From assembly GCA_046327955.1 (NCBI GenBank), contig JAXLXP010000005.1, forward strand, positions 228,136 through 292,135: a stretch of 64,000 bases of DNA. Reading direction: 5' to 3'. This DNA comes from Candidatus Binatia bacterium. Lineage in GTDB: Bacteria > Desulfobacterota > Binatia > DP-6. This document shows, one piece after another, positions 3,436 through 59,778 of this stretch. The notes beneath the pieces were generated by a model, which saw nothing but the letters and a program-made list of their open reading frames with translations, was not told the DNA's origin and did not search any database. The position numbers were made by a program, and so were the translations under genes. Position 1 is the first letter of the stretch. Every line of letters begins with the position of its first letter.

Positions 3436-4611
3436 ATGTTCGTCGACGAGACCCCGGAGCAGACGGCGCTGCGCGCCGAGCTTCGCGCGTACTTCGACAG
3501 GCTGATGACGCCGGAAGCGCGCGCGGCCACGCGCGGCATCGAGAGCGGAGAAGTCTACCACCGGCTCATCCGCCAGATGGGCCGGGATGGCTGGCTCGGC
3601 ATCGGGTGGCCGAAGGAGTACGGCGGCCAGGGCCGCTCGGCGAGCGAGCAGCTCGTCTTCTTCGAGGAGGCGCTGCTCGCGGGCGCTCCGCTCCCGTTCG
3701 TGACGCTCAACACCGTGGGGCCCGCGCTCATGGCGCTCGGCTCCGACGAGCACAAGCGGCGGTTCCTGCCCGGGATCCTGCGCGGCGAGATCCACTTCGC
3801 GATCGGCTACTCGGAGCCGGGCGCGGGGACCGACCTCGCGTCGCTCGCGACCACCGCCGTCCGCGACGGCGACGACTGGGTCGTCAACGGCACCAAGTCG
3901 TTCACCAGCGGCGCCGAGGGGGCCGACTTCGTCTGGCTCGCGGCGCGCACCGATCCGGAGGCGCCGAAGCACAAGGGCCTCACGATCCTCATCGTCGACA
4001 CCACGCTCCCCGGGTTCTCGGTTGCACCCATCCACACGGTCGGCGGCATGCGCACGAACATGACCTACTACGACAACGTGCGCGTCCCCGTCGCCATGAC
4101 CGTCGGGGCCGTGAACGGCGGCTGGCAGCTCATCACCGCGCAGCTCAACCACGAGCGCATCGGGCTGGCGGCGTTCGGCGTGAAGGCGCTCGGGCTCTAC
4201 AACGCGACGCTCGCGTGGGCGCGCGCCACCCTCGACGCCGACGGCCGGCCCGTGATCGAAGAGCCGTGGGTCCAGACCTCGCTCGCCGAGGCGTACTGCC
4301 GGCTGAAGGCGATGCGGGTGATGAACGCGCGGATGGCGTGGGAGCTGGAGCAGGGGAAGGTCGACCCGGCGCGCGCCTCGGCCGCGAAGGTGTACGGCAC
4401 GGAGTGCGTGATCGAGGTCTGCCGCCTCCTGCTCCAGGTGGTCGGGCCGCTCGGCGCGCTGCAGGCGGACTCGCCCGGTGCCGCGCTGCACGGCGAGCTG
4501 GAGCAGCAGTATCGCCTCTGCCAGATCAACACGTTCGGCGGCGGCGTCAACGAGATCCAACGCGAGATCGTCGCCATGCTCGGCTTGCGCATGCCGCGCG
4601 TCCCGCGGTGA
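3436..4611 (+). CDS. Acyl-CoA dehydrogenase
   Basis: ACAD family signatures (GWLGIGWPKEYGG, YSEPGAGTDLASLAT, GTKSFTSGA, C-terminal QINTFGGGVNEIQREIVA). ATG at 3436. Only the C-terminal 391 aa of the long six-frame ORF 1588..4611 are real. Confidence 0.9.
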   Translation: MFVDETPEQTALRAELRAYFDRLMTPEARAATRGIESGEVYHRLIRQMGRDGWLGIGWPKEYGGQGRSASEQLVFFEEALLAGAPLPFVTLNTVGPALMALGSDEHKRRFLPGILRGEIHFAIGYSEPGAGTDLASLATTAVRDGDDWVVNGTKSFTSGAEGADFVWLAARTDPEAPKHKGLTILIVDTTLPGFSVAPIHTVGGMRTNMTYYDNVRVPVAMTVGAVNGGWQLITAQLNHERIGLAAFGVKALGLYNATLAWARATLDADGRPVIEEPWVQTSLAEAYCRLKAMRVMNARMAWELEQGKVDPARASAAKVYGTECVIEVCRLLLQVVGPLGALQADSPGAALHGELEQQYRLCQINTFGGGVNEIQREIVAMLGLRMPRVPR

Positions 4612-4621
4612 GGGAAGATCG

Positions 4622-5737
4622 ATGGACTTTGCATTCAGCGACGATCAGCGCGCGATTCGGGATCTCGCGGAACGGATCTTCCAGGATCACGTCACGCCGA
4701 AGCGGCTGCTGGAGGTCGAGGCGGGCAGCGAGGGCATCGATCGCGAGCTGTGGCGCCGGCTGGCAGAGGCGAGTCTCCTCGGCGCGGCGTTGCCGGAGCG
4801 CGTCGGTGGCAGCGGCCTCGGGCTCTTCGAGCTGTGCCTCGTCCTCGAGCAGGCGGGTCGCCGCGTGGCGCCCGTGCCGCTCGTACCGGCCGTCGTGCTG
4901 GCCGCGCTGCCGATCGCGACGTTCGGCAGCGGCGCGCAGCAGGCGGCGTATCTCCCGCGGCTCGCCGCCGGTGAGACGCTGCTCAGCGCCGCGCTGGTGG
5001 AGGAGGGCGGATCGGATCCGATGCGCCCGCGCACCACGGCGCGTCGCGACGGCGCCGCGTGGCGTCTCGACGGCGAGAAGCACTGCGTCCCGATCGGCCG
5101 GCTCGCCGAGCGCGTCCTGGTGCCCGCTCGCACCGCCGACGGCGTCGGCGTCTTCTTGCTCGATCCCGCGGCGTCCGGCGTCAGCTGCGAGCGGCAGCGC
5201 GCGACGAACCGCGAGCCGCTGGCGCGCTTGACGCTCGCCGGGGCGCGGGTCGATGGCACCGACCTGCTCGGCACGCCGGCCGAGGGCGCCGCGATCGTCC
5301 ACTGGATCGCGGCGCGGGCCGCGCTCGCGCTCTGCGCCGTGCAGCTCGGCGTCGCCGAGGAGGCCGTGCGCCTGACGGCCGAGTATACCGCGACCCGCCA
5401 GCAGTTCGGGCGACCGATCGGCAGCTTCCAGGGCGTGGCGCTGCGCGCCGCCGACGCCTACATCGACGTCGAGGCCATGCGCTCGGTGCTCTGGGAGGCG
5501 GCGTGGCGCGTGGGCGAGGGCCGCCCGGCCGCGGGCGAAATCGCCACGGCGACGTGGTGGGCGTGTACCGCCGGACAGCGCGTCGTGCACACCGCGCAGC
5601 ACCTCCACGGCGGTATCGGTGCGGACGTGGACTACCCCATCCACCGCTACTTCCTGTGGGCGAAGCAGATCGAGCTGGCGCTGGGCGGGGCCGGCCGGCA
5701 GCTCGCCCGCCTCGGCGCGGAGCTGCCGAGCCTGTAA
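4622..5737 (+). CDS. Acyl-CoA dehydrogenase, second tandem paralogue
   Basis: ACAD-like sequence (...QQFGRPIGSFQGVALRAADAYIDVEAMR...HLHGGIGADVDYPIHRYF). Starts 11 nt after the previous stop, consistent with an operon. Confidence 0.85.
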   Translation: MDFAFSDDQRAIRDLAERIFQDHVTPKRLLEVEAGSEGIDRELWRRLAEASLLGAALPERVGGSGLGLFELCLVLEQAGRRVAPVPLVPAVVLAALPIATFGSGAQQAAYLPRLAAGETLLSAALVEEGGSDPMRPRTTARRDGAAWRLDGEKHCVPIGRLAERVLVPARTADGVGVFLLDPAASGVSCERQRATNREPLARLTLAGARVDGTDLLGTPAEGAAIVHWIAARAALALCAVQLGVAEEAVRLTAEYTATRQQFGRPIGSFQGVALRAADAYIDVEAMRSVLWEAAWRVGEGRPAAGEIATATWWACTAGQRVVHTAQHLHGGIGADVDYPIHRYFLWAKQIELALGGAGRQLARLGAELPSL

Positions 5738-5741
5738 GCCC

Positions 5742-6593
5742 ATGGAGCGCAAGGTCGCGTTCGTCACCGGCGCGAGCCGCGGCATCGGCAAGGCGTCGGC
5801 GCTCGCGCTCGCCGAGGTCGGCTACGACGTGGTCGTCACCGCGCGCACGGTCGAGGAGGGCGAGCGCTACGACTACGGTCCCAGCCTCGCGCAGTCGGGC
5901 GAGCGCGCGATGCCCGGCAGCCTGCGCGTCACCGCCGAGGAGATCCGCCGGCGCGGTCGGGCGGCGCTGCCGATCCGCCTCGACCTGCTCGACCGGGGCT
6001 CGATCGACGCGGCGGTCGATCGGGCGTTGCGGGAGTGGGGCCACGTCGACCTTCTGCTGAACAACGGCATCTATCAGGGGCCGGGCCTCATGGACCGCCT
6101 GCTCGACCTCTCCGACGAGATGGTGCGCACGGTGTTCGAGGGCAACGTCTTCGCGCAGATCCACCTCACGCAGCGGGTCGTGCGCGCGATGCTCGACCGC
6201 GGCCGGGGCGTCGTCGTCAACGTGACGTCCAACGCGGGGCTTGCCGATCCCCCTGGGCCGGCGGGCGAGGGCGGGTGGGGATTCGCGTACGGCGCGTCGA
6301 AAGGCGCGTTCCATCGGATGGCGGGCATCCTGCACGTCGAGCTGCGCGACCGTGGCATCCGAGCGTACAACGTCGAGCCCGGACTCATCCTGACGGAAGC
6401 GCAGAAGGTCCTCTTCGGCGACGACAGCGACCTGGTGCGCCACTACCGCGGCGCGCCGCCGGCGGTGCCGGCCGCCGTCGTGGCCTGGCTCGCGACCGAT
6501 CCCGAGGCCGTGGCGATGAGCGGCCAGACGATCGCCGCGCAGCCGTTCTGCAAGCAGCGAGGGCTCGTGGCGGGCTGGCCGCCAGCGCGCTGA
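5742..6593 (+). CDS. Short-chain dehydrogenase/reductase (SDR)
   Basis: TGASRGIGKA Rossmann motif, NNG motif, and YGASK catalytic Y-x3-K. ATG 5 nt after the upstream stop. Confidence 0.85.
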   Translation: MERKVAFVTGASRGIGKASALALAEVGYDVVVTARTVEEGERYDYGPSLAQSGERAMPGSLRVTAEEIRRRGRAALPIRLDLLDRGSIDAAVDRALREWGHVDLLLNNGIYQGPGLMDRLLDLSDEMVRTVFEGNVFAQIHLTQRVVRAMLDRGRGVVVNVTSNAGLADPPGPAGEGGWGFAYGASKGAFHRMAGILHVELRDRGIRAYNVEPGLILTEAQKVLFGDDSDLVRHYRGAPPAVPAAVVAWLATDPEAVAMSGQTIAAQPFCKQRGLVAGWPPAR

Positions 6594-31424: not shown

Positions 31425-32576
31425 ATGTCGCAATTCCTCGAGGTCATCGAGTGGGTGGACGGTGGGGGCGAGGAGATCGTCCACCGCGTCCCGTCCGAGG
31501 GGTCGGGAGAGACCAAGCTCGGCGCGCAGCTCGTCGTGCGCGACAACCAGGCGGCGGTGTTCTTCCGCGGTGGGCGCGGGCTCGATGTCTTCGGTCCCGG
31601 GCGGCACACCCTCGCCACGGCGAACCTGCCCGTGCTCACCAAGGTGCTCTCCCTGCCGTGGGGGTTCACGAGCCCCTTCCGCTGCGAGGTCTACTTCGTC
31701 TCGACGCGGGTTTTCACCCAGCTCCGGTGGGGAACGAAGGACCCCGTCGCCTTCCGCGACCGCGAGCTCGGCCTCGTCCGGCTGCGGGCGTTCGGCGCGT
31801 TCACGATGCGGGTCACGCAGCCGCTCTTGTTCGTGAACCAGATCGTCGGCAGCACGCAGGCGACTTTCGCAACCGCCGACATCGAGGACTACCTGCGCGA
31901 GGTGATCGTCTCGCGCCTCAACGACTTCCTGGGCGAGTCCGTCGACACGCTGCTCGACCTCCCGAAGCACTACGACGAGCTGGCAGTTCGGGTGAAGGCC
32001 CGCCTGGTCGAGGATTTCCAGAAGTACGGCGTCGAGCTGGTGGACCTCTACGTCAACCGGATCACGCCCCCCGAAGACGTGCAGCGGGTCCTCGACGAGC
32101 GGACCGGCATGGCGGCGGTCGGCGACCTGGAAGCGTACCTCAAGTACAAGGCGGCGACGGCCCTCGGCGACGCGGCCCGCAACGGCGGCAACGGGGGCGC
32201 CGCGGGTCTCGGGGTGGGCGTGGGTGCGGGGCTCGGCGTGATGCTGCCCGGGATGCTCTTCGGCGGGCGGACGGAGCACCTCTCGCTCGACCAGGTCGTG
32301 CAGCGCGGCGTCGTCGCCTGCCCGGCGTGTCATGGCGACGTCACCGTCACGAGCCGCTTCTGCGCCCACTGCGGCCAGCAGATGGTGGTGATCCGGAAGT
32401 GCTCGCGCTGCGATCGCAACGTCTCGGCCGACGCGCGCTTCTGTGCGTCCTGCGGCCTCGACCTCGGCGCCGCGCAGCACGCCTGTGGCAAGTGCGGGGC
32501 GACGCTCCCGCCGGGTACCCGCTTCTGCACGAGCTGCGGCGAGAAGGTCGCGGGCCCGGGCGGCGGGCCCGTCTGA
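31425..32576 (+). CDS. SPFH/band-7-like domain protein with C-terminal double zinc ribbon
   Basis: GAGGGGG SD before the ATG. N-terminal SPFH-like (virion-core-like) domain. C-terminal CPACHGD...CAHCGQQ...CSRCDRNVSADARFCASCG...CGKCG...CTSCG zinc ribbons. Confidence 0.75.
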   Translation: MSQFLEVIEWVDGGGEEIVHRVPSEGSGETKLGAQLVVRDNQAAVFFRGGRGLDVFGPGRHTLATANLPVLTKVLSLPWGFTSPFRCEVYFVSTRVFTQLRWGTKDPVAFRDRELGLVRLRAFGAFTMRVTQPLLFVNQIVGSTQATFATADIEDYLREVIVSRLNDFLGESVDTLLDLPKHYDELAVRVKARLVEDFQKYGVELVDLYVNRITPPEDVQRVLDERTGMAAVGDLEAYLKYKAATALGDAARNGGNGGAAGLGVGVGAGLGVMLPGMLFGGRTEHLSLDQVVQRGVVACPACHGDVTVTSRFCAHCGQQMVVIRKCSRCDRNVSADARFCASCGLDLGAAQHACGKCGATLPPGTRFCTSCGEKVAGPGGGPV

Positions 32577-33918: not shown

Positions 33919-34008
33919 GCGACCTCTGCCAGAGAGGTCCGTCCGGCAGGAACAGGGATGGTTCTCGACACCACGTCCCGCCCCGACAGGGCGGGCGAGG
34001 AGGATCGG

Positions 34009-35883
34009 ATGTCAGAGAGGGCAGTTGGATCGAAGCGCGTCGAGTCGCGCGAAGGGGTGGTCATCCGCTTCGCGGGCGACTCGGGCGACGGCATGCAGGT
34101 CACCGGCATGCAGTTCACCGCCGAGACCGCGCTGGCCGGCAACGACCTCGCCACGCTGCCCGACTTCCCGGCCGAGATCCGCGCTCCCGCCGGCACGCTC
34201 GCCGGGGTGAGCGCGTTCCAGCTCAACTTCTCGTCGCACGAGGTCTTCACGCCCGGGGACGATCTCGACGTGCTGGTGGCGATGAACCCCGCGGCGCTCA
34301 AGATGAATCTCGGCGACCTGAAGACGGGCGGCATCCTCATCGTCGACCGCGAGGGCTTCAACGACTCGAACCTGCAGAAGGCCGAGTTCGCCTCCAGCCC
34401 CCTCGAGGACGGCTCGCTCGCCAAGTATCAGCTCTTCCAGGTCGACGTGACCAAACTCACGACCGCGGCGCTGCGCGACCTGGGTCTCTCGTCGCGCGCC
34501 GTGTTCCGCTGCCGGAACTTCTTCTGCCTCGGGATGGTCTCGTGGCTGTATCACCGGCCGATCGAACCCTCGGAGCAGTGGATCAAGGACCGCTTCAAGA
34601 AGACGCCCGAGCTGGTCGAGGCCAACCTGCGCTCGTTGCGTGCCGGCTGGGCCTTCGCGGAGACGGCGGAGCTGTTCGCGGTCTCGTACGAGATCAAGCC
34701 GGCGGCCATCACGCCCGGCGTCTATCGCAACATCACCGGCAACACCGCCACGGCCCTCGGCTTGGTGGCGGCGGCACAGAAGGCGGGTCGGCCGCTCTTC
34801 CTCGGCACCTACCCGATCACCCCCGCGAGCGACGTGCTCCACGAGCTCTCGGGGCTCAAGCACTTCGGGGTCTACACCTTTCAGGCCGAGGACGAGATCG
34901 CCGGCATCGGCTCGGCGCTCGGGGCCGCGTTCGGCGGCGCGATCGCGGTCACGACCACCAGCGGCCCCGGCATGAACCTCAAGGCGGAGACGATGGGGCT
35001 CGCGCTCGCGGTGGAGCTGCCGCTCGTCATCGTCGACGTCCAGCGTGCGGGGCCGTCGACCGGCATGCCGACCAAGCCCGAGCAGACCGACCTCCTCATG
35101 GCGGTCTACGGCCGTCACGGCGAGGCGCCGGTGCCGGTACTCGCCGCCGCGACCCCGTCGGACTGCTTCATGATGGCGTTCGAGGCGGTCCGGATCGCGG
35201 TCAAGTACATGACGCCCGTGATCCTCCTGACGGACGGGTTCCTCGCCAACGGCGCCGAGCCTTGGCTGATCCCCGATCCGGCGACGCTGCCCGAGATCCC
35301 GGTCCACTTCCGCACCGATCCGCAGGGCTTCTTCCCGTACCTGCGCGACGAGGAGACCCTGGCACGCCCGTGGGCGATCCCGGGCACGCCTGGGCTGGAG
35401 CACCGCGTCGGCGGCCTCGAGAAGGACGCGCTCACCGGCAACGTGAGCTACGCGCCGCTCAACCACGAGCAGATGACCCGCACGCGCGCCCGGAAGGTCG
35501 CCGGTATCGCACGCGACATCCCGCCGACGGAGGTCTTCGGCCCCACGCAGGGCGATCTCCTCGTCCTCGGCTGGGGGGGCACGTACGGCCCGCTGCGGGA
35601 AGCGGCTCGCCAGCTCCAGGCCGAGGGCCGCAAGGTCGCGCACGTGCACCTCCGCCACCTGAATCCGTTGCCGGCGGACCTGGGCGCGATCCTCGGCCGC
35701 TACCGTCACGTGCTCGTTCCCGAGATGAACCTGGGGCAGCTCGTCCGCCTCGTGCGGGCCGAGTACCTCGTCGACGCAGTGGGCTTCGGCAAGGTCCACG
35801 GCCGGCCGTTCAAGATTTCGGAGATCGTCGCCCGCGCCCAGAAGCTGCTCGAGGAGCGGGGCGCGCAGAAGAGGTCCGCATGA
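34009..35883 (+). CDS. korA: 2-oxoacid:ferredoxin oxidoreductase, alpha subunit (fused gamma-alpha type)
   Basis: GAGGAGGA SD before the ATG at 34009. POR N-terminal/gamma-like and alpha domains (YPITPASDVLHEL, TTSGPGMNLKAE). Confidence 0.85.
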   Translation: MSERAVGSKRVESREGVVIRFAGDSGDGMQVTGMQFTAETALAGNDLATLPDFPAEIRAPAGTLAGVSAFQLNFSSHEVFTPGDDLDVLVAMNPAALKMNLGDLKTGGILIVDREGFNDSNLQKAEFASSPLEDGSLAKYQLFQVDVTKLTTAALRDLGLSSRAVFRCRNFFCLGMVSWLYHRPIEPSEQWIKDRFKKTPELVEANLRSLRAGWAFAETAELFAVSYEIKPAAITPGVYRNITGNTATALGLVAAAQKAGRPLFLGTYPITPASDVLHELSGLKHFGVYTFQAEDEIAGIGSALGAAFGGAIAVTTTSGPGMNLKAETMGLALAVELPLVIVDVQRAGPSTGMPTKPEQTDLLMAVYGRHGEAPVPVLAAATPSDCFMMAFEAVRIAVKYMTPVILLTDGFLANGAEPWLIPDPATLPEIPVHFRTDPQGFFPYLRDEETLARPWAIPGTPGLEHRVGGLEKDALTGNVSYAPLNHEQMTRTRARKVAGIARDIPPTEVFGPTQGDLLVLGWGGTYGPLREAARQLQAEGRKVAHVHLRHLNPLPADLGAILGRYRHVLVPEMNLGQLVRLVRAEYLVDAVGFGKVHGRPFKISEIVARAQKLLEERGAQKRSA

Positions 35884-42342: not shown

Positions 42343-43145
42343 CACGTGCCGAACCGCACGTGGGCGCCGGGCCGGACCAGCACCCGCCGGCCGATGAAGC
42401 TGCCCTGGTAGCGGCCGCCGGCGCCGAGGATCACGTCGCTGGTGGGTGCGTACACGACGCCGGAGAAGGTGCTGCCCGGGCCGGCGCGGAACGCCGGGCC
42501 GTGCGACCCGCCGACGACCTCGACGTGCAACGTGGCGGGGTGCGCCGTCTCCGCCGCGCGCACGGCGGCGTCTGCGCCGAGGCGGATGCGTCCGCCCACC
42601 GCGAGGTCGCACTCGGTCTGGCAGAGCACGCGCGCGTGGGGCCCGAGACGCATCGCGCGCACGTCGTAGCGCCCGCCCTTGAAGAGCAGATTGCCGTGCG
42701 CGGCGACCTGCACGGTCCCGTACGCACCCGGCTCGAGTGGCGCGGTGAACCCGCGCGCGGGCACGCGCACCTCGCTCGCTCCGGGCAGGACCTGCACGAG
42801 CGGGAGCGCCTCGGTGACGAGCGGGATCGTCACGTCGCGGCAGAAGGACTTCGATGGGCCGTCGAGGAAGAGGCAGAACAGCCGGCGCGCCACGACACCC
42901 GGGGCGACGCGCACGGAGTACGCCGCCGCCGACCCGGCGACCCGCGTCCCGGGGCCGAGGCGCACCGTGCCCAGGTTGGCGCCCACGTCGCCCGCCTCGA
43001 TCCGGACGTGGGCTTCGAGCACCACGCGCTCCACCCCGAACACCGCGTACTTGAACGGGGACGCCGCCGGCCCGCTCTGTGCCCGTGCCGGCGCTGCCAT
43101 GGCGAGCGCCGAGAGACACGCGAGGAGGAGACGGGCCCCGGGCAT
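42342..43145 (-). CDS. Secreted hypothetical protein (beta-helix/bactofilin-like repeats)
   Basis: Signal peptide MPGARLLLACLSALAMAAPARA. Repetitive Gly/Val-rich beta-strand segments. Its stop overlaps the aroD start (TGATG). Confidence 0.5.
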   Translation of the reverse strand: MPGARLLLACLSALAMAAPARAQSGPAASPFKYAVFGVERVVLEAHVRIEAGDVGANLGTVRLGPGTRVAGSAAAYSVRVAPGVVARRLFCLFLDGPSKSFCRDVTIPLVTEALPLVQVLPGASEVRVPARGFTAPLEPGAYGTVQVAAHGNLLFKGGRYDVRAMRLGPHARVLCQTECDLAVGGRIRLGADAAVRAAETAHPATLHVEVVGGSHGPAFRAGPGSTFSGVVYAPTSDVILGAGGRYQGSFIGRRVLVRPGAHVRFGT

Positions 43146-43231: not shown

Positions 43232-44632
43232 ATGGTCGGCATCACCCGCATCGCCCCGTACCTCCCGCGCCACCGGCTCGACCGTGCGCAGCTCGGCCAG
43301 GCGTGGGGCGGCCGCGCCGCCGGTCTGCGCACCTGCGCCGGCATCGACGAGGACGCGCTCACGCTCGCCTGCGACGCCGCGCTGGCCTGTGTGGGCGACG
43401 CGGCGCCGGCCGGCATCGACGCGCTCTACCTCGCTACGACCAGTGCTCCATATCGCGAGAAGCAGATCGCGAGCATGGTGGCCACGGCGCTCGATCTTCC
43501 CCGCACCGTCGCCGTCGCCGACTTCGGGGGCTCGGTGCGCGCAGGGACGACGGCGCTGCGTGCGGCGCTCGACGGCGTGCGGGCCGGAAGTCTCACCGGC
43601 GCGTTGGTCGTGGCGGCCGACGTCCGGCTCGCCGAGCCCGGCTCCGACGTCGAGGCGCTGCTCGGCGACGGGGCGTGTGCCGCGCTCGTCGGGTGCGACG
43701 GCGTGATCGCCGAGCTCGTCTCCTCGGCGGCGGTCAGCGAAGAGTTCACGTACGTCTTTCGCACCGACGAGCAGCGCTACGTGCAGGTCTCGGACATGCG
43801 CTTCGGCAGCACGTACGGCTACGCGCGCGATGTCGCGGAGGCGGTGGCGACGGCGCTGCGCAAGGCCGAGATCCCACCCGCCAATGTGGCGCGACTCGCG
43901 CTCGGTGCCCCCGACGCGCGCGCGGCGGCCGAGGCCGCCAAGAAGATCGGGGTCGACGCGAAGGTGCTCGTCGCGCCGCTGGTTGCCGAAGCCGGCGTGC
44001 TCGGTACTCCCGACCCGCTGGTTCTGCTCTCGCAGGCCCTCGAGACCGTGCGGCCCGGCGACTTCGTCGTGGTCGCCGCATACGGCGAAGGCGCCGACGC
44101 GCTCGTCTTCCGCGCCACGGAGCACCTTCCGGCGGCGCGTCCGCGCCCACTCGCCGAGGCGCTCGCGAGCGGCATCCCGCTCTCCTACCCGGTCTACCTG
44201 CGCAACCGCGGTGTGCTCCCATTCGAGGCGCCTACGCCCGGACCCGGGGAGCAGTACACGACCATGCTCGAGTGGCGGGAGCTCCGGCAGGACGTCCGCT
44301 TCTACGGCAGCCGGTGCGAGGCCTGCGGCCTGGTGCAGTATCCGCAGGCGCGGGTGTGTACGGGCTGCCGCGCGCAGGAGCGGATGACGGAGCACAAGCT
44401 CGCCAAGCGCGGGACGGTCTTCACCTACACGATCGACACCATCGCGCCCACGCTCGAGCACCCGGTCGGCATGGTGATCGTCGACCTCGATGGCGGCGGG
44501 CGGGTGTACGTGCAGACGACCGACGCGGCCGACGGCGAGATCGCGGTTGGCACGCCGGTCGTGCTCACCTACCGGCGCATCGGCGAGGGGCTCGGCAACC
44601 GCAACTATTACTGGAAGGCCCGGCCGGCCTGA
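43232..44632 (+). CDS. HMG-CoA synthase-like condensing enzyme fused to a C-terminal DUF35 (OB-fold + Zn-ribbon) domain
   Basis: N-terminal thiolase-fold/HMGCS-like region (Cys in ...TTSAPYREK / ADFGGSVRAGT). C-terminal DUF35-like ...RFYGSRCEACGLVQYPQARVCTGCRAQE...GTVFTYTI. Confidence 0.75.
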   Translation: MVGITRIAPYLPRHRLDRAQLGQAWGGRAAGLRTCAGIDEDALTLACDAALACVGDAAPAGIDALYLATTSAPYREKQIASMVATALDLPRTVAVADFGGSVRAGTTALRAALDGVRAGSLTGALVVAADVRLAEPGSDVEALLGDGACAALVGCDGVIAELVSSAAVSEEFTYVFRTDEQRYVQVSDMRFGSTYGYARDVAEAVATALRKAEIPPANVARLALGAPDARAAAEAAKKIGVDAKVLVAPLVAEAGVLGTPDPLVLLSQALETVRPGDFVVVAAYGEGADALVFRATEHLPAARPRPLAEALASGIPLSYPVYLRNRGVLPFEAPTPGPGEQYTTMLEWRELRQDVRFYGSRCEACGLVQYPQARVCTGCRAQERMTEHKLAKRGTVFTYTIDTIAPTLEHPVGMVIVDLDGGGRVYVQTTDAADGEIAVGTPVVLTYRRIGEGLGNRNYYWKARPA

Positions 44633-44651
44633 CCACGGGGGAGTCCTGGCG

Positions 44652-45797
44652 ATGAAGGATCGCGTCGCCGTCATCGGCGCCGGGTGCACGAAGTTCGGGG
44701 ACCGCTACGACCGCACGTACGAGGACCTCATCTGCGACGCGGCGTTCGAGGCCTATGCGGACGCCGGCATCGACCCGGCCGACATCCAGGCCGCCTACCT
44801 GGGCACGTACATCCCGGGCGCGGGTGGCGGGAAATCCGCCACCGCGCTCGCCGATGCACTCAAGCTCTTCGGCCGCCCGATCACGCGCGTCGAGAACTAC
44901 TGTGCCACCGGCACCGACGCCTTTCGCAACGGCTGCATCGCGATCGCGTCGGGCCTCTACGACGTCGTGCTCGTGCTCGGGGCGGAGAAGCTGAAGGACC
45001 GCGGCGGCCGCGGGCTGCCGCGCTTCGGCCATCCGTTGCTCGCGCGTGGCAACTCGGCACCCGGCCTCTTCGCGCTCGCGGCCAACCGGTACATGCACAC
45101 CTTCGGGCTCGGCCGCGAGACGCTGGCCCGCGTCGCCGTGAAGAACCACCGCAACGGCAAGGACAACCCGCTCGCGCACCTGCGCATGGAGATCACCGTC
45201 GAGCAGGCGCTGAAGGCGCCGATCATCGCCTCGCCGTTCGGCCTCTTCGATTGCTGCCCGACGACCGACGGTGCCGCGGCGGTGATCCTCTGCCGTGCCG
45301 ACCTCGCGTCGCGCTTCAAGGGGACGGCGGTCACGGTGAAGGGCGTCGGCCTCGCGGTCGAGACCGGGCGGCCGTTCTTCGACCCGACGTTCGACTACCT
45401 CGGCTTCCGCTCGACGCAGGCGGCGGCGAAGCAGGCCTATGCGATGGCCGGCATCGGGCCGTCCGACGTCTCGCTCGCCGAGGTCCACGACTGCTTCACG
45501 TGGACGGAGATAGCGAACATCGAAGACCTGGGCTTCTGCGAGAAGGGGCAGGGCGGGAAGCTGGTCGACGAGGGGCGCACGGCGATCGGCGGCGACGTCC
45601 CGATCAACCCGAGCGGCGGGCTCAAGTCGTTCGGCCACCCGATCGGCGCGAGCGGCGTGCGCATGATCCACGAATGCGTGACGCAGCTTCGCGGCCAGGC
45701 TGGGCCGCGCCAGGTGCGGAACGCCGAGCTCGCGCTCGCGCACAACGTCGGCGGGCCGGGCGCGGTCGCGTGCGTGGTCGTGCTCGGCAACGCTTGA
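44652..45797 (+). CDS. Thiolase (SCP-x/nonspecific lipid-transfer-protein-type, archaeal-like)
   Basis: VIGAGCTKFGD, NYCATGTDAF (active-site Cys), CCPTTDGAAAV, and GHPIGASGVRM (GH motif). Confidence 0.85.
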   Translation: MKDRVAVIGAGCTKFGDRYDRTYEDLICDAAFEAYADAGIDPADIQAAYLGTYIPGAGGGKSATALADALKLFGRPITRVENYCATGTDAFRNGCIAIASGLYDVVLVLGAEKLKDRGGRGLPRFGHPLLARGNSAPGLFALAANRYMHTFGLGRETLARVAVKNHRNGKDNPLAHLRMEITVEQALKAPIIASPFGLFDCCPTTDGAAAVILCRADLASRFKGTAVTVKGVGLAVETGRPFFDPTFDYLGFRSTQAAAKQAYAMAGIGPSDVSLAEVHDCFTWTEIANIEDLGFCEKGQGGKLVDEGRTAIGGDVPINPSGGLKSFGHPIGASGVRMIHECVTQLRGQAGPRQVRNAELALAHNVGGPGAVACVVVLGNA

Positions 45798-45810: not shown

Positions 45811-46362
45811 GTGATCGGTCGCTGGATCGCACTCGGGTCGTACGCGGGCGCGATCTGGACGACGCTGGGCGTTGCGCCGCGGGTCGCCAACGCCGTGCTG
45901 GCCACGCCCGTCGGCGCGTGGATGGTCGGACGTGGCGCCTGGGTCCTCGCGGCGACGGCGATCGTCGTGCTCGCGCGCGGGTTTGCCTACCGCCGGGCGT
46001 CGTGGGGCGCGTGGGGGCTGCTGGGGATCGCGGGCGCGGGGTACGTGCTCGGCCTCGTCTGGCTGCGATCGCAGCGGATCGAACGCCTGCACCTTCCCGA
46101 GTACGGCGTCGCGGCGTGGCTCGCGTGGCGGGCGGTGGTCCTGATCGCCGGCGACGGCGCGGCGGGCTATGTCGCCGCGGTGCTCGTCGCGACGGGGATC
46201 GGCTGGAGCGACGAGCTGCTGCAGGCGCTCGTGCCGGGGCGCGTCTACGACCTGCGCGACGTCGTCGCCAACGCGCTCGGTGCGGCGTTGGGCGTGGTCG
46301 TCCTGGCAGCGGTGCGGATGGGAGGGCGCAGGACCCCTCAGTCGCAGACCGTGTGGCGGTAG
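45811..46362 (+). CDS. VanZ-like membrane protein
   Basis: Four hydrophobic helices. C-terminal SDELLQALVPGRVYDLRDVVANALGAALG, typical of the VanZ family. GTG start. Confidence 0.5.
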   Translation: MIGRWIALGSYAGAIWTTLGVAPRVANAVLATPVGAWMVGRGAWVLAATAIVVLARGFAYRRASWGAWGLLGIAGAGYVLGLVWLRSQRIERLHLPEYGVAAWLAWRAVVLIAGDGAAGYVAAVLVATGIGWSDELLQALVPGRVYDLRDVVANALGAALGVVVLAAVRMGGRRTPQSQTVWR

Positions 46363-48253: not shown

Positions 48254-49393
48254 ATGCTGGGTTTTCGCCTGACCGAGGAGCAGGAGGCGTTTCGCGACGC
48301 GGTGCGGAGCTTCGCCGAGAAGTCGCTCGCGCCGCGGGTCGAACAGCTGGAAGCCGAGGAGAAGTTCCCGCTCGACCTGTTCCGCGAGCTCGGCCGGCTC
48401 GGCTACCTCGGCGTCGGCTACCCCGAGGAGTACGGCGGCAGCGGCGGCGACATGGTGATGCGCTGCCTGCTCATCGAGGAGATCGGGCGCGTGAACGCCG
48501 GATTCGCGGCCGCGCTGCTGGCGCACGTGGGGCTCGGTACCATCCCGATCCTCAAGTTCGGCACCGAGGCGCAGAAGAAGGGCTATCTCGTGCCGGCGCT
48601 GCGCGGCGAGAAGCTCGGCAGCCTCGGGCTCTCCGAGCCCGACGCGGGATCGGACGCGGCGTCGATCCGCACCACCGCGGTCCGCGAGGGCGACCACTAC
48701 GTGATCAACGGCTCGAAGATGTTCATCACCAACGGAAACATCGCCGACTACTGTATGGTGGCCGCCTACACCGACCGGTCGCGCCGCGGCGCCGGCATCA
48801 GCATGTTCATCGTCGACACGGCGACGCCGGGCTTCCACGTGTCGCGCAAGCTGAAGAAGCTCGGGCACCACACCTCGGAGACCGCGGCGCTCGCGTTCGA
48901 GGACATGAAGGTGCCGGCGCACGCGCTGCTCGGCGGCGTCGAGGGCGGCTTCAAGCAGGTGACCGGCACGCTCGAAGGCGGTCGCATCACGCACGCGGCG
49001 CGGTCGATCGGCATCGGCCAGGCGGCGTTCGACACCGCGCTGCAGTACGCGCGGGAGCGCGAGCAGTTCGGGCAGAAGATCGCCAAGTTCCAGGCGATCA
49101 AGTTCAAGCTCGCGCGCATGGCGATGGAGGTCGAGACGGCGCGCACGATGATGTGGCGCGCCGCGTGGCTCTTCGATCAGGGGGCCTGTATGCGCGAGGC
49201 GGCGATGGCGAAGCTCTACGCGTCGGAGATGGCCCAGCGGGTGACCTGGGAGGCGATCCAGATCCTCGGGGGCTATGGCTACATCACCGAGTTCCCGGTC
49301 GAGCGCTTCTGGCGCGACGCCCGCCTCATGACCATCACCGAGGGCACGAGCGAGATCCAGCTCACGATCATCGCGCGGGAGCTCGGCCTGTGA
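48254..49393 (+). CDS. Acyl-CoA dehydrogenase (short/branched-chain type)
   Basis: Canonical ACAD motifs ([58 protein letters not shown]). Confidence 0.9.
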
Positions 49394-58272: not shown

Positions 58273-59778
58273 ATGACCGAGGACACGACGCCGATCCTGA
58301 TCGGCGGAGGACAGATCACGCAGCGGGACGTGGACCCCGCGGGGGCCCTCGAGCCCCTCGATCTCATGGCGGAGGCGGCCCGGCGGGCGGCGGTGAACGC
58401 GGGCTCGGGTCCGGGGATCCTCCACGGGCTCGATACGATCGCCGTCGTCAACGTGTTCTGCTGGGACTACGGCAACGCGCCCCGACTCCTGGCCGAGCGT
58501 GTCGGCGCGCATCCGACGCGCGAGATGTACACGACGATCGGTGGCAATTCGCCACAATGGATCGTGAACGAGCTCGCGGGACAGGTCGCGGCGGGAACGG
58601 TGCGGTTGGCGCTCGTGGCCGGGGCCGAGGCGGTCTACACGCTCGCGCGATCGCGTCGGACGCAGGCGCGGCTGGCGTGGGCCAGCCACGCCGGGGAGCA
58701 CGCGACCAGCGTGGGCGGGACCCAGCTCGGTACGAACGACTACGAGCTCACGCACAACCTCCAGTTGCCCGTGCAGATCTATCCGTTCTTCGAGAATGCG
58801 ATCCGGGCCGCGCGGGGGTGGAGCCTGGCGCAGCACCGCCACGAGCTGGGCGCGCTCTGCGCGCGGTTCTCGGCGGTGGCGGCCGAGAACCCGCACGCGT
58901 GGTTCCCGCAGGCGCGGACCGCGGAAGAGATCGCCACCGTGACGCCCGACAACCGGATGATCGCGTTCCCGTACCCGAAGCGGATGAACGCGATCATCGA
59001 CGTCGACCAGGGTGCGGCGGCGCTCGTCACGTCCGTGGCGACCGCCCGGGCGCTCGGGATCCCGCAGGAGCGCTGGGTCTATCTGCGCGGCGTCGCGGAC
59101 GCGCACGACCACTGGTACGTGTCGGAGCGGGTGAGCTACCACACCTCGCCCGCGATCCGCGCCGCGGGGCAGGCCGCGCTCGCCATGGCGGGGCTCGACG
59201 TCGGGGAGGTCGACCACTTCGACCTCTACAGCTGCTTCCCGTCGGCCGTGCAGATCGGCCGCGACATGCTCGGCATCCCGCGCGACGATCCACGTCCGCT
59301 CACGGTGACCGGCGGCCTGCCGTACTTCGGCGGCCCCGGCAACAACTACTCGCTGCACGCCATCGTCACGATGCTCGACCGCGTACGCGATCGCCGTGGC
59401 AGCACCGGGCTCGTCAGCGCGCTCGGTTGGTTCCTCACCAAGCACTCGATCGGCGTGTACTCCGCCGCACCGCCGGCGGGTCCGTGGCGCCGGCCCGACC
59501 CGGCGGCTCCGCAGCGGCTGGTCGATGCGGACCCGAAGCCCGTACTCTGCATGGAGCCGAGCGGCGCGGCGACGATCGAGACGTACACCGTCGTCTACGG
59601 CCGGGACGGGACGCCGCTCGTCGGGCTCGTCATCGGCCGCCTCGCCGACGGGCGCCGCTTTCTGGCGTCGGCCCCCGACGACCGGGACGTGCTCGAGTCG
59701 CTGACGACCCGCGAGGCCGTCGGGCTTCCCGGTCACGCGTCGTGCCACGACCGCGTCGGGCGATTCGATCCGGCGTAG
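58273..59778 (+). CDS. Thiolase-like protein (acetyl-CoA acetyltransferase-like, ~500 aa)
   Basis: Thiolase-fold N- and C-domains with a C-terminal extension. Starts 10 nt after the upstream stop. Confidence 0.7.
   Translation: MTEDTTPILIGGGQITQRDVDPAGALEPLDLMAEAARRAAVNAGSGPGILHGLDTIAVVNVFCWDYGNAPRLLAERVGAHPTREMYTTIGGNSPQWIVNELAGQVAAGTVRLALVAGAEAVYTLARSRRTQARLAWASHAGEHATSVGGTQLGTNDYELTHNLQLPVQIYPFFENAIRAARGWSLAQHRHELGALCARFSAVAAENPHAWFPQARTAEEIATVTPDNRMIAFPYPKRMNAIIDVDQGAAALVTSVATARALGIPQERWVYLRGVADAHDHWYVSERVSYHTSPAIRAAGQAALAMAGLDVGEVDHFDLYSCFPSAVQIGRDMLGIPRDDPRPLTVTGGLPYFGGPGNNYSLHAIVTMLDRVRDRRGSTGLVSALGWFLTKHSIGVYSAAPPAGPWRRPDPAAPQRLVDADPKPVLCMEPSGAATIETYTVVYGRDGTPLVGLVIGRLADGRRFLASAPDDRDVLESLTTREAVGLPGHASCHDRVGRFDPA

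What the first reader, a model, noticed from the sequence alone, without database searches (positions are those of the whole stretch)
43232..45797. Archaeal-type thiolase / HMG-CoA-synthase / DUF35 module with HMGCS and DUF35 fused into one polypeptide
Gene 43232..44632 joins an HMG-CoA-synthase-like condensing-enzyme fold to a C-terminal DUF35 domain (Zn-ribbon CEACG...CTGC plus OB fold). It is followed 19 nt later by an SCP-x-type thiolase (NYCATGTDAF, GHPIGASG).

In archaea these three activities are separate proteins that form a channelling complex for acetoacetyl-CoA and HMG-CoA synthesis in the mevalonate pathway. A bacterial two-gene version with an HMGCS-DUF35 fusion suggests a covalently tethered complex. 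Myxobacteria use HMG-CoA chemistry for the alternative isovaleryl-CoA/leucine-independent branched-chain starter pathway. This pair, flanked by acyl-CoA dehydrogenases, may be a variant of that route or a beta-oxidation-like C-C bond thiolysis system.
Basis: partly seen in the sequence, partly recalled or inferred. Interest (0 to 1): 0.55.

Follow-up and report, generated by a model that had tools for sequence, protein, structure and literature searches.

The report
Thiolase with dead HMGS-DUF35 scaffold partner
This is a two-gene unit in which an intact thiolase sits beside a fusion protein that looks like HMG-CoA synthase but has lost all its catalytic residues; the arrangement is common, was described and tested in 2026, and most likely breaks down 3-ketoacyl-CoAs rather than making HMG-CoA.

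Summary
Gene 43232-44632 encodes an HMG-CoA-synthase (HMGS)-like thiolase-fold domain fused to a DUF35 module (Cys4 zinc ribbon plus OB fold). An SCP2-type thiolase gene follows 19 nt later at 44652-45797.

The HMGS-like domain has lost the whole E-C-H-N catalytic tetrad (T70/V102/G225/V256). None of 143 diverse full-length fusion homologs has the Glu, Cys or His either.

The thiolase keeps Cys84, the H279-D-C-F motif and the G-H329-P motif.

This architecture was published in Nat Commun 2026 (PMC12960953). The P. fluorescens ACAT/HMGS-DUF35 complex made no HMG-CoA or acetoacetyl-CoA but cleaved acetoacetyl-CoA thiolytically.

The window comes from a Candidatus Binatia MAG, not a myxobacterium. 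Only one acyl-CoA dehydrogenase gene is nearby.

Distant homologs in Rhodococcus, sphingomonads, Azoarcus, Streptomyces, Thermoleophilia and haloarchaea sit in beta-oxidation-like catabolic clusters.

Best reading: a degradative 3-ketoacyl-CoA thiolase held by a catalytically dead HMGS-like/DUF35 scaffold, substrate unknown. It is a new member of a known kind, of low interest.

The parts
43232..44632 (+). Gene for the 466-aa fusion protein: catalytically dead HMGS/PhlA-like thiolase-fold domain plus a C-terminal DUF35 module
   Evidence: ORF and translation. Pfam and NCBIfam hits. PDB hits to PhlA, archaeal HMGS and DUF35. An identical protein is annotated in a Candidatus Binatia MAG. The N-terminus matches homologs.
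43232..44221 (+). HMGS-like domain (aa 1-330). The tetrad positions are T70 (43439-43441), V102 (43535-43537), G225 (43904-43906) and V256 (43997-43999), replacing archaeal E82/C114/H238/N270
   Evidence: HMMER alignment to 6ESQ_I and PhlA. MAFFT column mapping, validated because PhlA gives C/G/Q/D, the same residues as the published mut4 variant. AF2 model and Foldseek give TM 0.85-0.87 to 5MG5_A and 6ESQ_I. Codon coordinates.
44288..44377 (+). Rubredoxin-like zinc ribbon of DUF35 (aa 353-382), with ligands C362, C365, C376 and C379
   Evidence: PF12172 at 25.3 bits against a cutoff of 23.2. The four Cys are 99-100% conserved in 143 diverse homologs.
44393..44569 (+). OB-fold domain of DUF35 (aa 388-446)
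   Evidence: PF01796 at 42.9 bits against a cutoff of 27.1. Aligns to the 6ESQ_E DUF35 chain at E 6e-15. This part of the AF2 model has low pLDDT.
44637..44643 (+). GGGGGAG Shine-Dalgarno-like sequence inside the 19-nt spacer before the thiolase gene
   Evidence: Read directly from the sequence. This suggests co-transcription and coupled translation, which is an inference.
44652..45797 (+). Gene for a 381-aa SCP2-type thiolase with an intact active site: C84 (44901-44903), H279-D-C281-F (45486-45497) and G-H329-P (45633-45641)
   Evidence: Pfam Thiolase_N and Thiolase_C_1. NCBIfam PRK06157 'acetyl-CoA acetyltransferase' at 472 bits, above the 403 cutoff. PDB 7YVY and the archaeal complex thiolase 6ESQ_A at E about 1e-71. 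The motifs are conserved in 23 of 24 partner thiolases.

Best explanation
The two genes most likely encode a heteromeric thiolase complex of the bacterial 'ACAT/HMGS-DUF35' type.

- The SCP2-type thiolase (gene 2) is the only catalyst. It uses Cys84 as the acyl-carrying nucleophile and the HDCF and GHP histidines.
- The fusion protein (gene 1) is a pseudoenzyme. It keeps the HMGS fold and the DUF35 zinc-ribbon/OB module that, in the solved archaeal, Phl and Muc complexes, clamp the thiolase and help form the interfacial CoA-binding chamber. It has lost the Glu-Cys-His-Asn tetrad, so it cannot form the acetyl-enzyme or perform the HMG-CoA condensation.
- The likely physiological reaction is thiolytic cleavage of a 3-ketoacyl-CoA (a retro-Claisen reaction yielding acetyl-CoA or a short acyl-CoA plus a shortened acyl-CoA) in a beta-oxidation-like route. 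The substrate in Binatia is unknown.

Shown here: the domain architecture, the loss of the tetrad, the retention of the thiolase motifs, conserved adjacency of the pair across phyla, and the catabolic context of distant homologs.

Inferred: complex formation, the direction of the reaction, and the substrate.
For: 1. The tetrad is lost. E82/C114/H238/N270 of 6ESQ HMGS align to T70/V102/G225/V256. Across 143 full-length fusion representatives, none has E, C or H at the three triad columns. The same holds for annotated homologs from Rhodococcus, Novosphingobium, Azoarcus, Streptomyces and two haloarchaea.
2. The dead domain is still under constraint. Binatia homologs share 64-72% identity. Family-wide conserved residues are the ones shared with HMGS and PhlA, such as the DED motif, P73, D97 and R/K103.
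3. The thiolase retains C84, HDCF and GHP. It scores above the NCBIfam PRK06157 cutoff and matches the archaeal complex thiolase at E 2.5e-71. The motifs are kept in 23 of 24 partner thiolases.
4. Fusion and thiolase genes are adjacent and co-oriented in Binatia and Thermoleophilia. On plasmids, the six homologs whose regions were opened (Rhodococcus, Novosphingobium, Azoarcus, Streptomyces, two haloarchaea) each lie next to a thiolase gene. The other plasmid hits, such as M. avium, Variovorax and Paraburkholderia, were not opened.
5. Published biochemistry covers the same architecture. P. fluorescens PfACAT/HMGS-DUF35 has a fused HMGS-DUF35, no tetrad, and an ACAT with Cys, HDxF and GHx. [quoted passage not shown] An H294Y change in the HDxF motif nearly abolished that activity (PMC12960953).
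6. Distant homologs lie among enoyl-CoA hydratases, acyl-CoA dehydrogenases, 3-hydroxyacyl-CoA dehydrogenases, SDRs, acyl-CoA ligases, Rieske dioxygenases, a P450 and FadD3.
Against: - Nothing was assayed for this protein.
- In the Binatia window the pair is not inside a beta-oxidation operon. Its conserved neighbours are DUF7305, VanZ, an aminoacyl-tRNA synthetase and one ACAD on a separate transcription unit.
- In several Binatia genomes an opposite-strand gene separates the two genes, so strict co-transcription is not universal.
- Thiolase reactions are reversible. In vitro thiolysis of acetoacetyl-CoA does not fix the in vivo direction or substrate.
- The authors of the 2026 paper themselves suggest such complexes may be evolutionary intermediates without a defined pathway.
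Confidence: 0.7

Rival explanations
1. One reading: a covalently tethered archaeal-type complex. The thiolase makes acetoacetyl-CoA and the fused HMGS domain converts it to HMG-CoA, for mevalonate or isovaleryl-CoA chemistry.
For: There is clear homology of all three modules to the 6ESQ complex. The thiolase is archaeal-ACAT-like and has the HDxF motif.
Against: All four HMGS catalytic residues are replaced, by T70/V102/G225/V256, and none of the 143 homologs has the Glu, Cys or His. The archaeal quadruple mutant E82C/C114G/H238Q/N270D and the P. fluorescens fused complex make no HMG-CoA. NCBIfam HMGS models score far below their cutoffs, at 156 vs 244 and 93 vs 353. The organism is a Binatia bacterium, not a myxobacterium.
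Confidence: 0.03
2. The complex works in the condensing direction in vivo. It would be a Claisen ketothiolase for reverse beta-oxidation, fatty-acid or storage-polymer synthesis, analogous to the archaeal KT/DUF35 fatty-acid synthase core. The dead HMGS domain would serve as a docking platform for the next enzyme.
For: The thiolase reaction is reversible. The archaeal KT/DUF35 pair of S. acidocaldarius acts biosynthetically and recruits a reductase and a dehydratase (bioRxiv 10.1101/2024.07.05.601840). The Binatia pair is not embedded in an obvious catabolic operon.
Against: The P. fluorescens complex gave no acetoacetyl-CoA from acetyl-CoA, although that could simply reflect thermodynamics. 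Homologs elsewhere sit with ACADs, acyl-CoA ligases and oxygenases, which are typical of catabolism. No reductase or dehydratase partner is encoded next to the pair in the window.
Confidence: 0.15
3. A PhlACB/MucABC-type CoA-independent or acetyl-CoA-dependent Friedel-Crafts C-acyltransferase acting on a phenolic or tetramic-acid acceptor.
For: The best PDB sequence and fold matches of the N-domain are to PhlA. PhlA and MucA also lack the tetrad.
Against: PhlC and MucB have lost the HDxF motif, whereas this thiolase keeps H279-D-C-F. The thiolase matches PhlC much more weakly (E 4e-32) than archaeal ACAT (E 2.5e-71). No type III PKS or NRPS-PKS gene was found in the genes scanned around the pair. 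PhlB is a separate protein in those systems.
Confidence: 0.04
4. A retro-aldolase of the Ltp2-ChsH2(DUF35)/Sal-Shy type, or a BbsAB-type benzoylsuccinyl-CoA thiolase acting on a bulky aromatic or steroid CoA ester.
For: DUF35-dependent SCP2-thiolase-fold enzymes do these jobs. Some plasmid homologs lie in steroid- or aromatic-degradation clusters.
Against: NCBIfam BbsB scores 213 against a 750 cutoff and BbsA scores 25 against 250. The Ltp2 chain 6OK1_A is a much weaker match (E 6e-31) than true thiolases. In those systems DUF35 is free or fused to a MaoC hydratase, not to an HMGS-like domain. The canonical thiolase residues are all retained here.
Confidence: 0.05

Closest known systems
PfACAT/HMGS-DUF35 complex of Pseudomonas fluorescens (Nat Commun 2026;17:2196, PMC12960953)
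   Same: A two-gene unit with a fused HMGS-DUF35 polypeptide. [quoted passage not shown] The partner ACAT keeps the catalytic Cys, HDxF and GHx motifs. There are no PKS or NRPS neighbours.
   Different: The lineage differs (Binatia) and the sequence is probably distant. Identity to proteobacterial fused homologs that could be retrieved is about 33-34%, and the P. fluorescens sequence itself was not available. The Binatia subfamily has Val/Thr/Ile/Ala at the Cys position, whereas most of the wider family has Leu. No biochemistry exists for this member.
[quoted passage not shown]
   Same: All three modules are homologous: thiolase at E 2.5e-71, DUF35 at E 6e-15, HMGS at E 1e-14, and fold TM 0.87. 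The thiolase retains the HDxF motif.
   Different: The archaeal HMGS is catalytically active (E82/C114/H238/N270) and is a separate polypeptide. Here the tetrad is gone and the HMGS-like domain is fused to DUF35, so HMG-CoA synthesis and intermediate channelling are not expected.
PhlACB (P. protegens, 5M3K/5MG5) and MucABC (S. macacae, 9VBO) Friedel-Crafts acyltransferases
   Same: A catalytically dead HMGS-like subunit (PhlA/MucA) gives the best sequence and fold match to the N-domain. Both also have a DUF35 subunit and an SCP2-type thiolase-fold catalytic subunit.
   Different: Those thiolase subunits have lost HDxF and acylate small-molecule acceptors. Their genes lie in PKS or NRPS clusters, and DUF35 is a separate protein.
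BbsAB benzoylsuccinyl-CoA thiolase (G. metallireducens, 7PXP) and archaeal KT/DUF35 pairs
   Same: An SCP2-type thiolase that depends on a DUF35 partner, with an HDxF-based mechanism.
   Different: No HMGS-like domain is involved. NCBIfam Bbs models score far below their cutoffs.

Membership tests
Bacterial ACAT/HMGS-DUF35 complexes (PfACAT/HMGS-DUF35 class, PMC12960953) | HMGS-like domain and DUF35 fused in one polypeptide | tested here: met
   A single 466-aa ORF. The HMGS-like region spans aa 1-330, with PF12172 at 353-382 and PF01796 at 388-446.
Bacterial ACAT/HMGS-DUF35 complexes (PfACAT/HMGS-DUF35 class, PMC12960953) | [quoted passage not shown] | tested here: met
   T70/V102/G225/V256 stand at the positions of E82/C114/H238/N270. 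The alignment is validated because PhlA gives C/G/Q/D, as in the published mut4 variant.
Bacterial ACAT/HMGS-DUF35 complexes (PfACAT/HMGS-DUF35 class, PMC12960953) | Adjacent ACAT/SCP2-type thiolase retaining the catalytic Cys, HDxF and GHx motifs | tested here: met
   C84 (in NYCATG), H279-D-C-F and G-H329-P. The gene starts 19 nt downstream.
Bacterial ACAT/HMGS-DUF35 complexes (PfACAT/HMGS-DUF35 class, PMC12960953) | No neighbouring PKS/NRPS biosynthetic genes | tested here: met
   Pfam scans of the likeliest (high-GC3) ORFs from about 29 kb to 63 kb of the window found none. Gene calls on the matching contig found none either.
Bacterial ACAT/HMGS-DUF35 complexes (PfACAT/HMGS-DUF35 class, PMC12960953) | Thiolytic cleavage of acetoacetyl-CoA with no HMG-CoA formation; physical complex of the two proteins | not testable with these tools
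   Needs protein expression and LC-MS assays.
Bacterial ACAT/HMGS-DUF35 complexes (PfACAT/HMGS-DUF35 class, PMC12960953) | Direct sequence relationship to the characterised P. fluorescens proteins | not tested
   The sequence and accession are not given in the held text and no supplements are held. Relationship to other proteobacterial fused homologs was shown at 33-34% identity over the full length.
Archaeal thiolase/HMGS/DUF35 mevalonate-entry complex (6ESQ) | Catalytically competent HMGS (Glu-Cys-His, plus Asn) | tested here: not met
   All four residues are substituted. NCBIfam PRK04262 scores 156 bits against a 244 cutoff, and TIGR00748 scores 93 against 353.
Archaeal thiolase/HMGS/DUF35 mevalonate-entry complex (6ESQ) | SCP2-type thiolase with Cys, HDxF and GHx, and a DUF35 zinc ribbon plus OB fold | tested here: met
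   However, NCBIfam AcCoTHIOL_METTL scores 343 bits against a 600 cutoff.
PhlACB/MucABC Friedel-Crafts acyltransferases | Thiolase subunit that has lost the HDxF motif and gained acceptor-binding residues | tested here: not met
   HDCF is retained. PhlC matches only at E 4e-32.
PhlACB/MucABC Friedel-Crafts acyltransferases | Location in a type III PKS or NRPS-PKS gene cluster | tested here: not met
   No such genes are in the window neighbourhood.
BbsAB benzoylsuccinyl-CoA thiolase | Scores above the NCBIfam equivalog cutoffs for BbsA and BbsB | tested here: not met
   BbsA scores 25 against 250. BbsB scores 213 against 750.
Myxobacterial alternative isovaleryl-CoA pathway (active MvaS-type HMGS) | Active HMG-CoA synthase in a myxobacterial genome | tested here: not met
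   The triad is absent. The source is a Candidatus Binatia MAG.

The most novel reading that the evidence does not exclude
In Binatia the dead HMGS-like/DUF35 scaffold may do more than stabilise the thiolase. It could keep a ligand- or CoA-binding pocket that gates substrate choice, or it could dock a further enzyme. That would give the complex a dedicated, still unknown substrate such as a branched or cyclic 3-oxoacyl-CoA, or a condensing role in vivo. The Binatia clade is highly conserved, with the thiolase at 78-84% and the fusion at 64-72% identity. It also has its own residue pattern at the former active site and a fixed non-beta-oxidation neighbourhood, which leaves room for a lineage-specific housekeeping function.
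Probability: 0.12. Interest if true: 0.4.

Novelty: new member of a known kind. Interest (0 to 1): 0.15.

Why it matters
Annotation pipelines label this protein 'HMG-CoA synthase' (JGI names; some RefSeq plasmid records). That label would wrongly imply a mevalonate or HMG-CoA route in Binatia and in many catabolic bacteria. Recognising it as a pseudoenzyme scaffold for an SCP2-type thiolase corrects pathway reconstructions.

The family is large: 493 representatives of 50%-identity clusters at E<=1e-30. It spans bacteria and haloarchaea. Its physiological substrate is unknown in every member, so the broader class remains a reasonable biochemical target. This particular locus adds no new principle.

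Tried and rejected
- Upstream GTG start at 43079 (517 aa). Rejected because all homologs begin at the MVGITR methionine.
- Active HMGS. Rejected by tetrad mapping.
- Myxobacterial origin. Rejected.
- 'Flanked by ACADs'. Only one ACAD lies nearby, on a separate unit.
- Scan of genome contigs. The peptide patterns reached only Binatia, Thermoleophilia and Rokubacteria relatives, so it could not retrieve the P. fluorescens locus.
- The listing of cluster members on 10 diverse representatives gave almost no taxonomy, because nearly all are metagenomic.
- The supplement of PMC12960953 and the Vogeli 2018 paper are not held. The P. fluorescens sequence and the original residue numbering therefore came only indirectly, from the 2026 paper's mut4 definition.
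- The AF2 model is confident only for the N-domain. The DUF35 part and the linker have pLDDT of 30-60, so nothing was inferred from domain packing.
- One Pfam call failed on a wrong frame, and one paper search had a term that was too short.
- Oestrogen-degradation paper PMC8913865. Its DUF35 protein is a MaoC fusion, not this architecture.
Full report
**Observation**

The window has about 72% G+C. GC3-based ORF selection picks out two co-oriented genes in the flagged region.

Gene 1 runs from ATG 43232 to TGA 44630-44632 and encodes 466 aa. A 19-nt spacer follows, containing GGGGGAG. Gene 2 runs from ATG 44652 to TGA 45795-45797 and encodes 381 aa.

In gene 1, Pfam detects the two halves of DUF35. 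These are zf-ChsH2 (PF12172) at aa 353-382 and OB_ChsH2_C (PF01796) at aa 388-446, both above their gathering scores. The N-terminal 330 residues give only a sub-threshold FabH C-terminal hit.

That N-terminal region is nevertheless clearly HMGS-like.
- NCBIfam archaeal HMGS PRK04262 aligns over residues 1-328 at 156 bits, well below its 244-bit cutoff.
- PDB sequence hits are PhlA (E about 2e-20), the archaeal complex HMGS 6ESQ_I (E 1e-14) and MucA 9VBO_A (E 6e-13).
- The C-terminus hits the 6ESQ DUF35 chain at E 6e-15.

An AlphaFold2 model has mean pLDDT 73. The N-domain is mostly at 80-97 and the DUF35 part is poor. Foldseek best matches are PhlA 5MG5_A (TM 0.85), 6ESQ_I (TM 0.87) and MucA.

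Gene 2 is an SCP2-type thiolase. It carries Thiolase_N and Thiolase_C_1 and scores 472 bits on NCBIfam PRK06157, above the 403 cutoff. Its best solved relatives are 7YVY and the archaeal complex thiolase 6ESQ_A, at E about 1e-71.

The anatomical observation is therefore confirmed, including the quoted motifs.

**Corrections to the peripheral statements**

The exact gene-1 protein is deposited as 'OB-fold domain-containing protein [Candidatus Binatia bacterium]' on a 711-kb MAG contig. The closest loci in a species-level genome collection are Binatia MAGs. The organism is therefore not a myxobacterium.

The neighbours are as follows.
- Upstream, on the minus strand: DUF7305 and a type I dehydroquinase.
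- Further upstream: an ABC_ATPase-family gene and a glycosyltransferase.
- Downstream: a VanZ gene 13 nt after the thiolase stop, an opposite-strand class II aminoacyl-tRNA synthetase, one acyl-CoA dehydrogenase at 48254-49393, and an amino-acid permease.

The pair is not flanked by ACADs. One ACAD lies 2.4 kb downstream on a separate transcription unit.

The 2026 paper defines the archaeal HMGS tetrad as E82/C114/H238/N270 in 6ESQ numbering. Counting through the HMMER alignment to 6ESQ_I reproduces those numbers and places T70, V102, G225 and V256 of the window protein opposite them.

An independent MAFFT alignment of the query, 6ESQ_I, PhlA and 143 full-length fusion representatives gives the same mapping. 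It also returns C/G/Q/D for PhlA. Those are exactly the substitutions of the published mut4 variant (E82C/C114G/H238Q/N270D), which validates the columns.

Across the 143 representatives the columns read as follows.
- Glu column: T in 123, never E.
- Cys column: L in 102, never C.
- His column: Y, S, P, A and others, never H.

Six annotated homologs also lack the Glu and the Cys. They come from Rhodococcus, Novosphingobium, Azoarcus, Streptomyces, Natronorubrum and Haladaptatus.

Within the close Binatia family, the former Cys position varies (V/T/I/A) and the former His position varies (G/A/S). Many other N-domain residues are invariant.

Residues conserved family-wide in the N-domain are mostly those shared with both HMGS and PhlA. 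Examples are the DED motif, P73, D97, R/K103, D130, E141 and the glycine-rich turns. The four zinc-ligand cysteines are 99-100% conserved.

The N-domain is therefore a conserved pseudoenzyme, not a decaying gene and not an HMG-CoA synthase.

**The thiolase is intact**

From the alignment to 6ESQ_A, where H284 of the HDxF motif reproduces the paper's numbering, the window thiolase has three intact motifs.
- C84 in NYCATG.
- H279-D-C281-F.
- G-H329-P.

Of 24 partner thiolases next to fusion genes in the loci retrieved, 23 keep N-x-C-A-[TS]-G, HDCF and GHP. The exception, L024, aligns only partially and may be damaged.

**How common it is, and where**

A word-indexed search found at least 776 homologs. 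The best 120 are 64-73% identical and almost all are about 465 aa. JGI names many of them '3-hydroxy-3-methylglutaryl CoA synthase/uncharacterized OB-fold protein'.

An exhaustive HMMER search of 1.84 billion 50%-identity cluster representatives gave 2,960 hits at E<=1e-3 and 493 at E<=1e-30. Nearly all of the top 150 are full-length fusions at 31-52% identity.

The fusion-thiolase pair is adjacent and co-oriented in Binatia and in Thermoleophilia (Patulibacter, Baekduia, Solirubrobacterales). One Baekduia contig carries two tandem pairs.

tblastn against plasmids finds full-length fused homologs at 27-35% identity in M. avium, Rhodococcus, Sphingobium, Novosphingobium, Sphingopyxis, Variovorax, Azoarcus, Paraburkholderia, Streptomyces and many haloarchaea. 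In the six regions that were opened, the fusion gene lies next to a thiolase gene. In the two haloarchaeal loci opened, the gene order is thiolase then fusion.

The contexts found were these.
- Rhodococcus: acyl-CoA ligase, Rieske dioxygenase alpha and beta subunits, the pair, enoyl-CoA hydratase, then ACAD.
- Novosphingobium ES2-1: ACAD, SDR, the pair, two hydratases, Ltp plus OB-fold, P450 and FadD3.
- Azoarcus: the pair followed by a CoA-transferase, with a classical thiolase, ETF and MaoC genes nearby.
- Streptomyces: an ABC importer, the pair, an SDR and two acyl-CoA ligases.
- Natronorubrum: the pair followed by 3-hydroxyacyl-CoA dehydrogenase and a hydratase.
- Thermoleophilia: hydratase, 3-hydroxyacyl-CoA dehydrogenase, SDR, acyl-CoA ligase and TetR.

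These are beta-oxidation-like catabolic settings.

**What is already known**

DUF35 fusions to thiolase-superfamily domains were noted in 2010, as was the active-plus-inactive thiolase logic of PhlABC (PMC2954200).

The decisive prior work is Nat Commun 2026;17:2196 (PMC12960953).
- The authors mined 1,030 bacterial loci with co-localised HMGS, ACAT and DUF35 genes. Of these, 1,001 had no secondary-metabolism neighbours.
- They chose a P. fluorescens representative with a fused HMGS-DUF35 protein.
- In vitro it made neither HMG-CoA nor acetoacetyl-CoA from acetyl-CoA, but it cleaved acetoacetyl-CoA thiolytically.
- An H294Y change in the HDxF motif nearly abolished this activity.

Every sequence-level feature of that class is met by the window's pair (see the membership table). 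The P. fluorescens sequence itself could not be retrieved for direct alignment.

**Mechanism proposed**

By homology with the solved archaeal, Phl and Muc assemblies, the HMGS-like subunit and DUF35 clamp the thiolase-fold subunit. An interfacial CoA chamber persists in those assemblies even when the HMGS site is dead.

On that basis the fusion protein is inferred to be a structural partner, and possibly a CoA-binding partner, of the thiolase. MucB, the thiolase-fold subunit in the Muc complex, is insoluble and inactive alone. This makes an obligatory scaffold role plausible here.

Catalysis would be ordinary SCP2-thiolase chemistry on C84 with the HDCF and GHP histidines. The degradative direction is favoured by the published assay and by the catabolic contexts of distant homologs. 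It is not proven for Binatia, where the neighbourhood is uninformative.

In four of the Binatia loci examined, an opposite-strand gene is inserted between the two genes. In L002, the one checked with Pfam, it encodes a REC-T2SSE ATPase.

**Rivals**

- HMG-CoA synthesis is excluded at the level sequence analysis allows.
- Friedel-Crafts acyl transfer is unlikely, because HDxF is retained and no PKS or NRPS genes are nearby.
- BbsAB and Ltp2-type roles fail the NCBIfam cutoffs and the architectural criteria.
- A condensing role in vivo, analogous to the archaeal KT/DUF35 fatty-acid synthase core, cannot be excluded and is the main residual alternative.

**Verdict**

The feature is real and its anatomy was correctly described. 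The architecture was published and biochemically characterised in 2026, and domain fusions of this general type were noted in 2010. This locus is a new member of a known kind, from an uncultured lineage. Interest is low (0.15). The main practical value is correcting the 'HMG-CoA synthase' annotation.

Noticed in passing
window 58273-59778 (+): A 501-aa TLP1-type thiolase-like protein (PF18313 TLP1_add_C plus Thiolase_C_1). It is a second unusual thiolase-superfamily gene in the same window.
   Followed up: no
L002 9403-11604 (-); also L005, L012 and L003 between the fusion and thiolase genes: In four of the Binatia loci examined, an insert of about 1.6-2.3 kb separates the fusion gene from its thiolase. 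In L002 the insert is an opposite-strand gene encoding a response-regulator receiver fused to a T2SS/T4P-type ATPase (T2SSE). The pair is therefore not always one operon.
   Followed up: partly
window 45811-46362 (+): A VanZ-family gene starts 13 nt after the thiolase stop codon. It is conserved in that position in several Binatia loci (L001, L004, L007, L008, L010, L011). No functional link to acyl-CoA chemistry is apparent.
   Followed up: partly
L026 10646-11392 (Patulibacter defluvii) and L029 6191-6934 (Azoarcus sp. KH32C plasmid): A Y_phosphatase3-type tyrosine phosphatase gene lies next to the fusion/thiolase pair in two unrelated phyla. This may be coincidence.
   Followed up: no
L020 2607-5091 and 5942-8484 (Baekduia sp. 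MAG): Two tandem copies of the fusion-plus-thiolase pair lie on one contig, at 36-38% and 42-46% identity to the window proteins. This suggests paralogous complexes with different substrates.
   Followed up: no
L031 (Natronorubrum aibiense plasmid) 3826-6422; L032 (Haladaptatus pallidirubidus plasmid) 3829-6416: Haloarchaeal plasmids carry the same dead-HMGS/DUF35 fusion (tetrad positions S/T/Q/D and T/T/H/D) but with the gene order reversed, thiolase first. 3-hydroxyacyl-CoA dehydrogenase, hydratase or ACAD genes lie next to them. RefSeq labels one of the fusions '3-hydroxy-3-methylglutaryl CoA synthase'.
   Followed up: partly
L027 (Rhodococcus qingshengii plasmid pdjl-6-4) 4103-10558: The gene order is acyl-CoA ligase, Rieske dioxygenase alpha/beta, a small ORF, the fusion, then the thiolase. 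From memory, this resembles the ipfF/ipfAB/ipfD/ipfE ibuprofen-degradation layout. L022 comes from Patulibacter medicamentivorans, which I recall as an ibuprofen degrader. Neither recollection was checked.
   Followed up: no
window 33958-35883 (+) and 31425-32576 (+): A 2-oxoacid:ferredoxin oxidoreductase-type protein (POR and POR_N domains), and an SPFH/Band-7 protein with C-terminal double zinc ribbons, lie upstream of the region.
   Followed up: no
L024 8001-10505 (uncultured delta proteobacterium MAG): The fusion homolog matches only residues 1-437 at 40% identity. The adjacent thiolase aligns partially, with HRLR in place of HDCF. This may be a frameshift or assembly error, or a decaying copy.
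   Followed up: no
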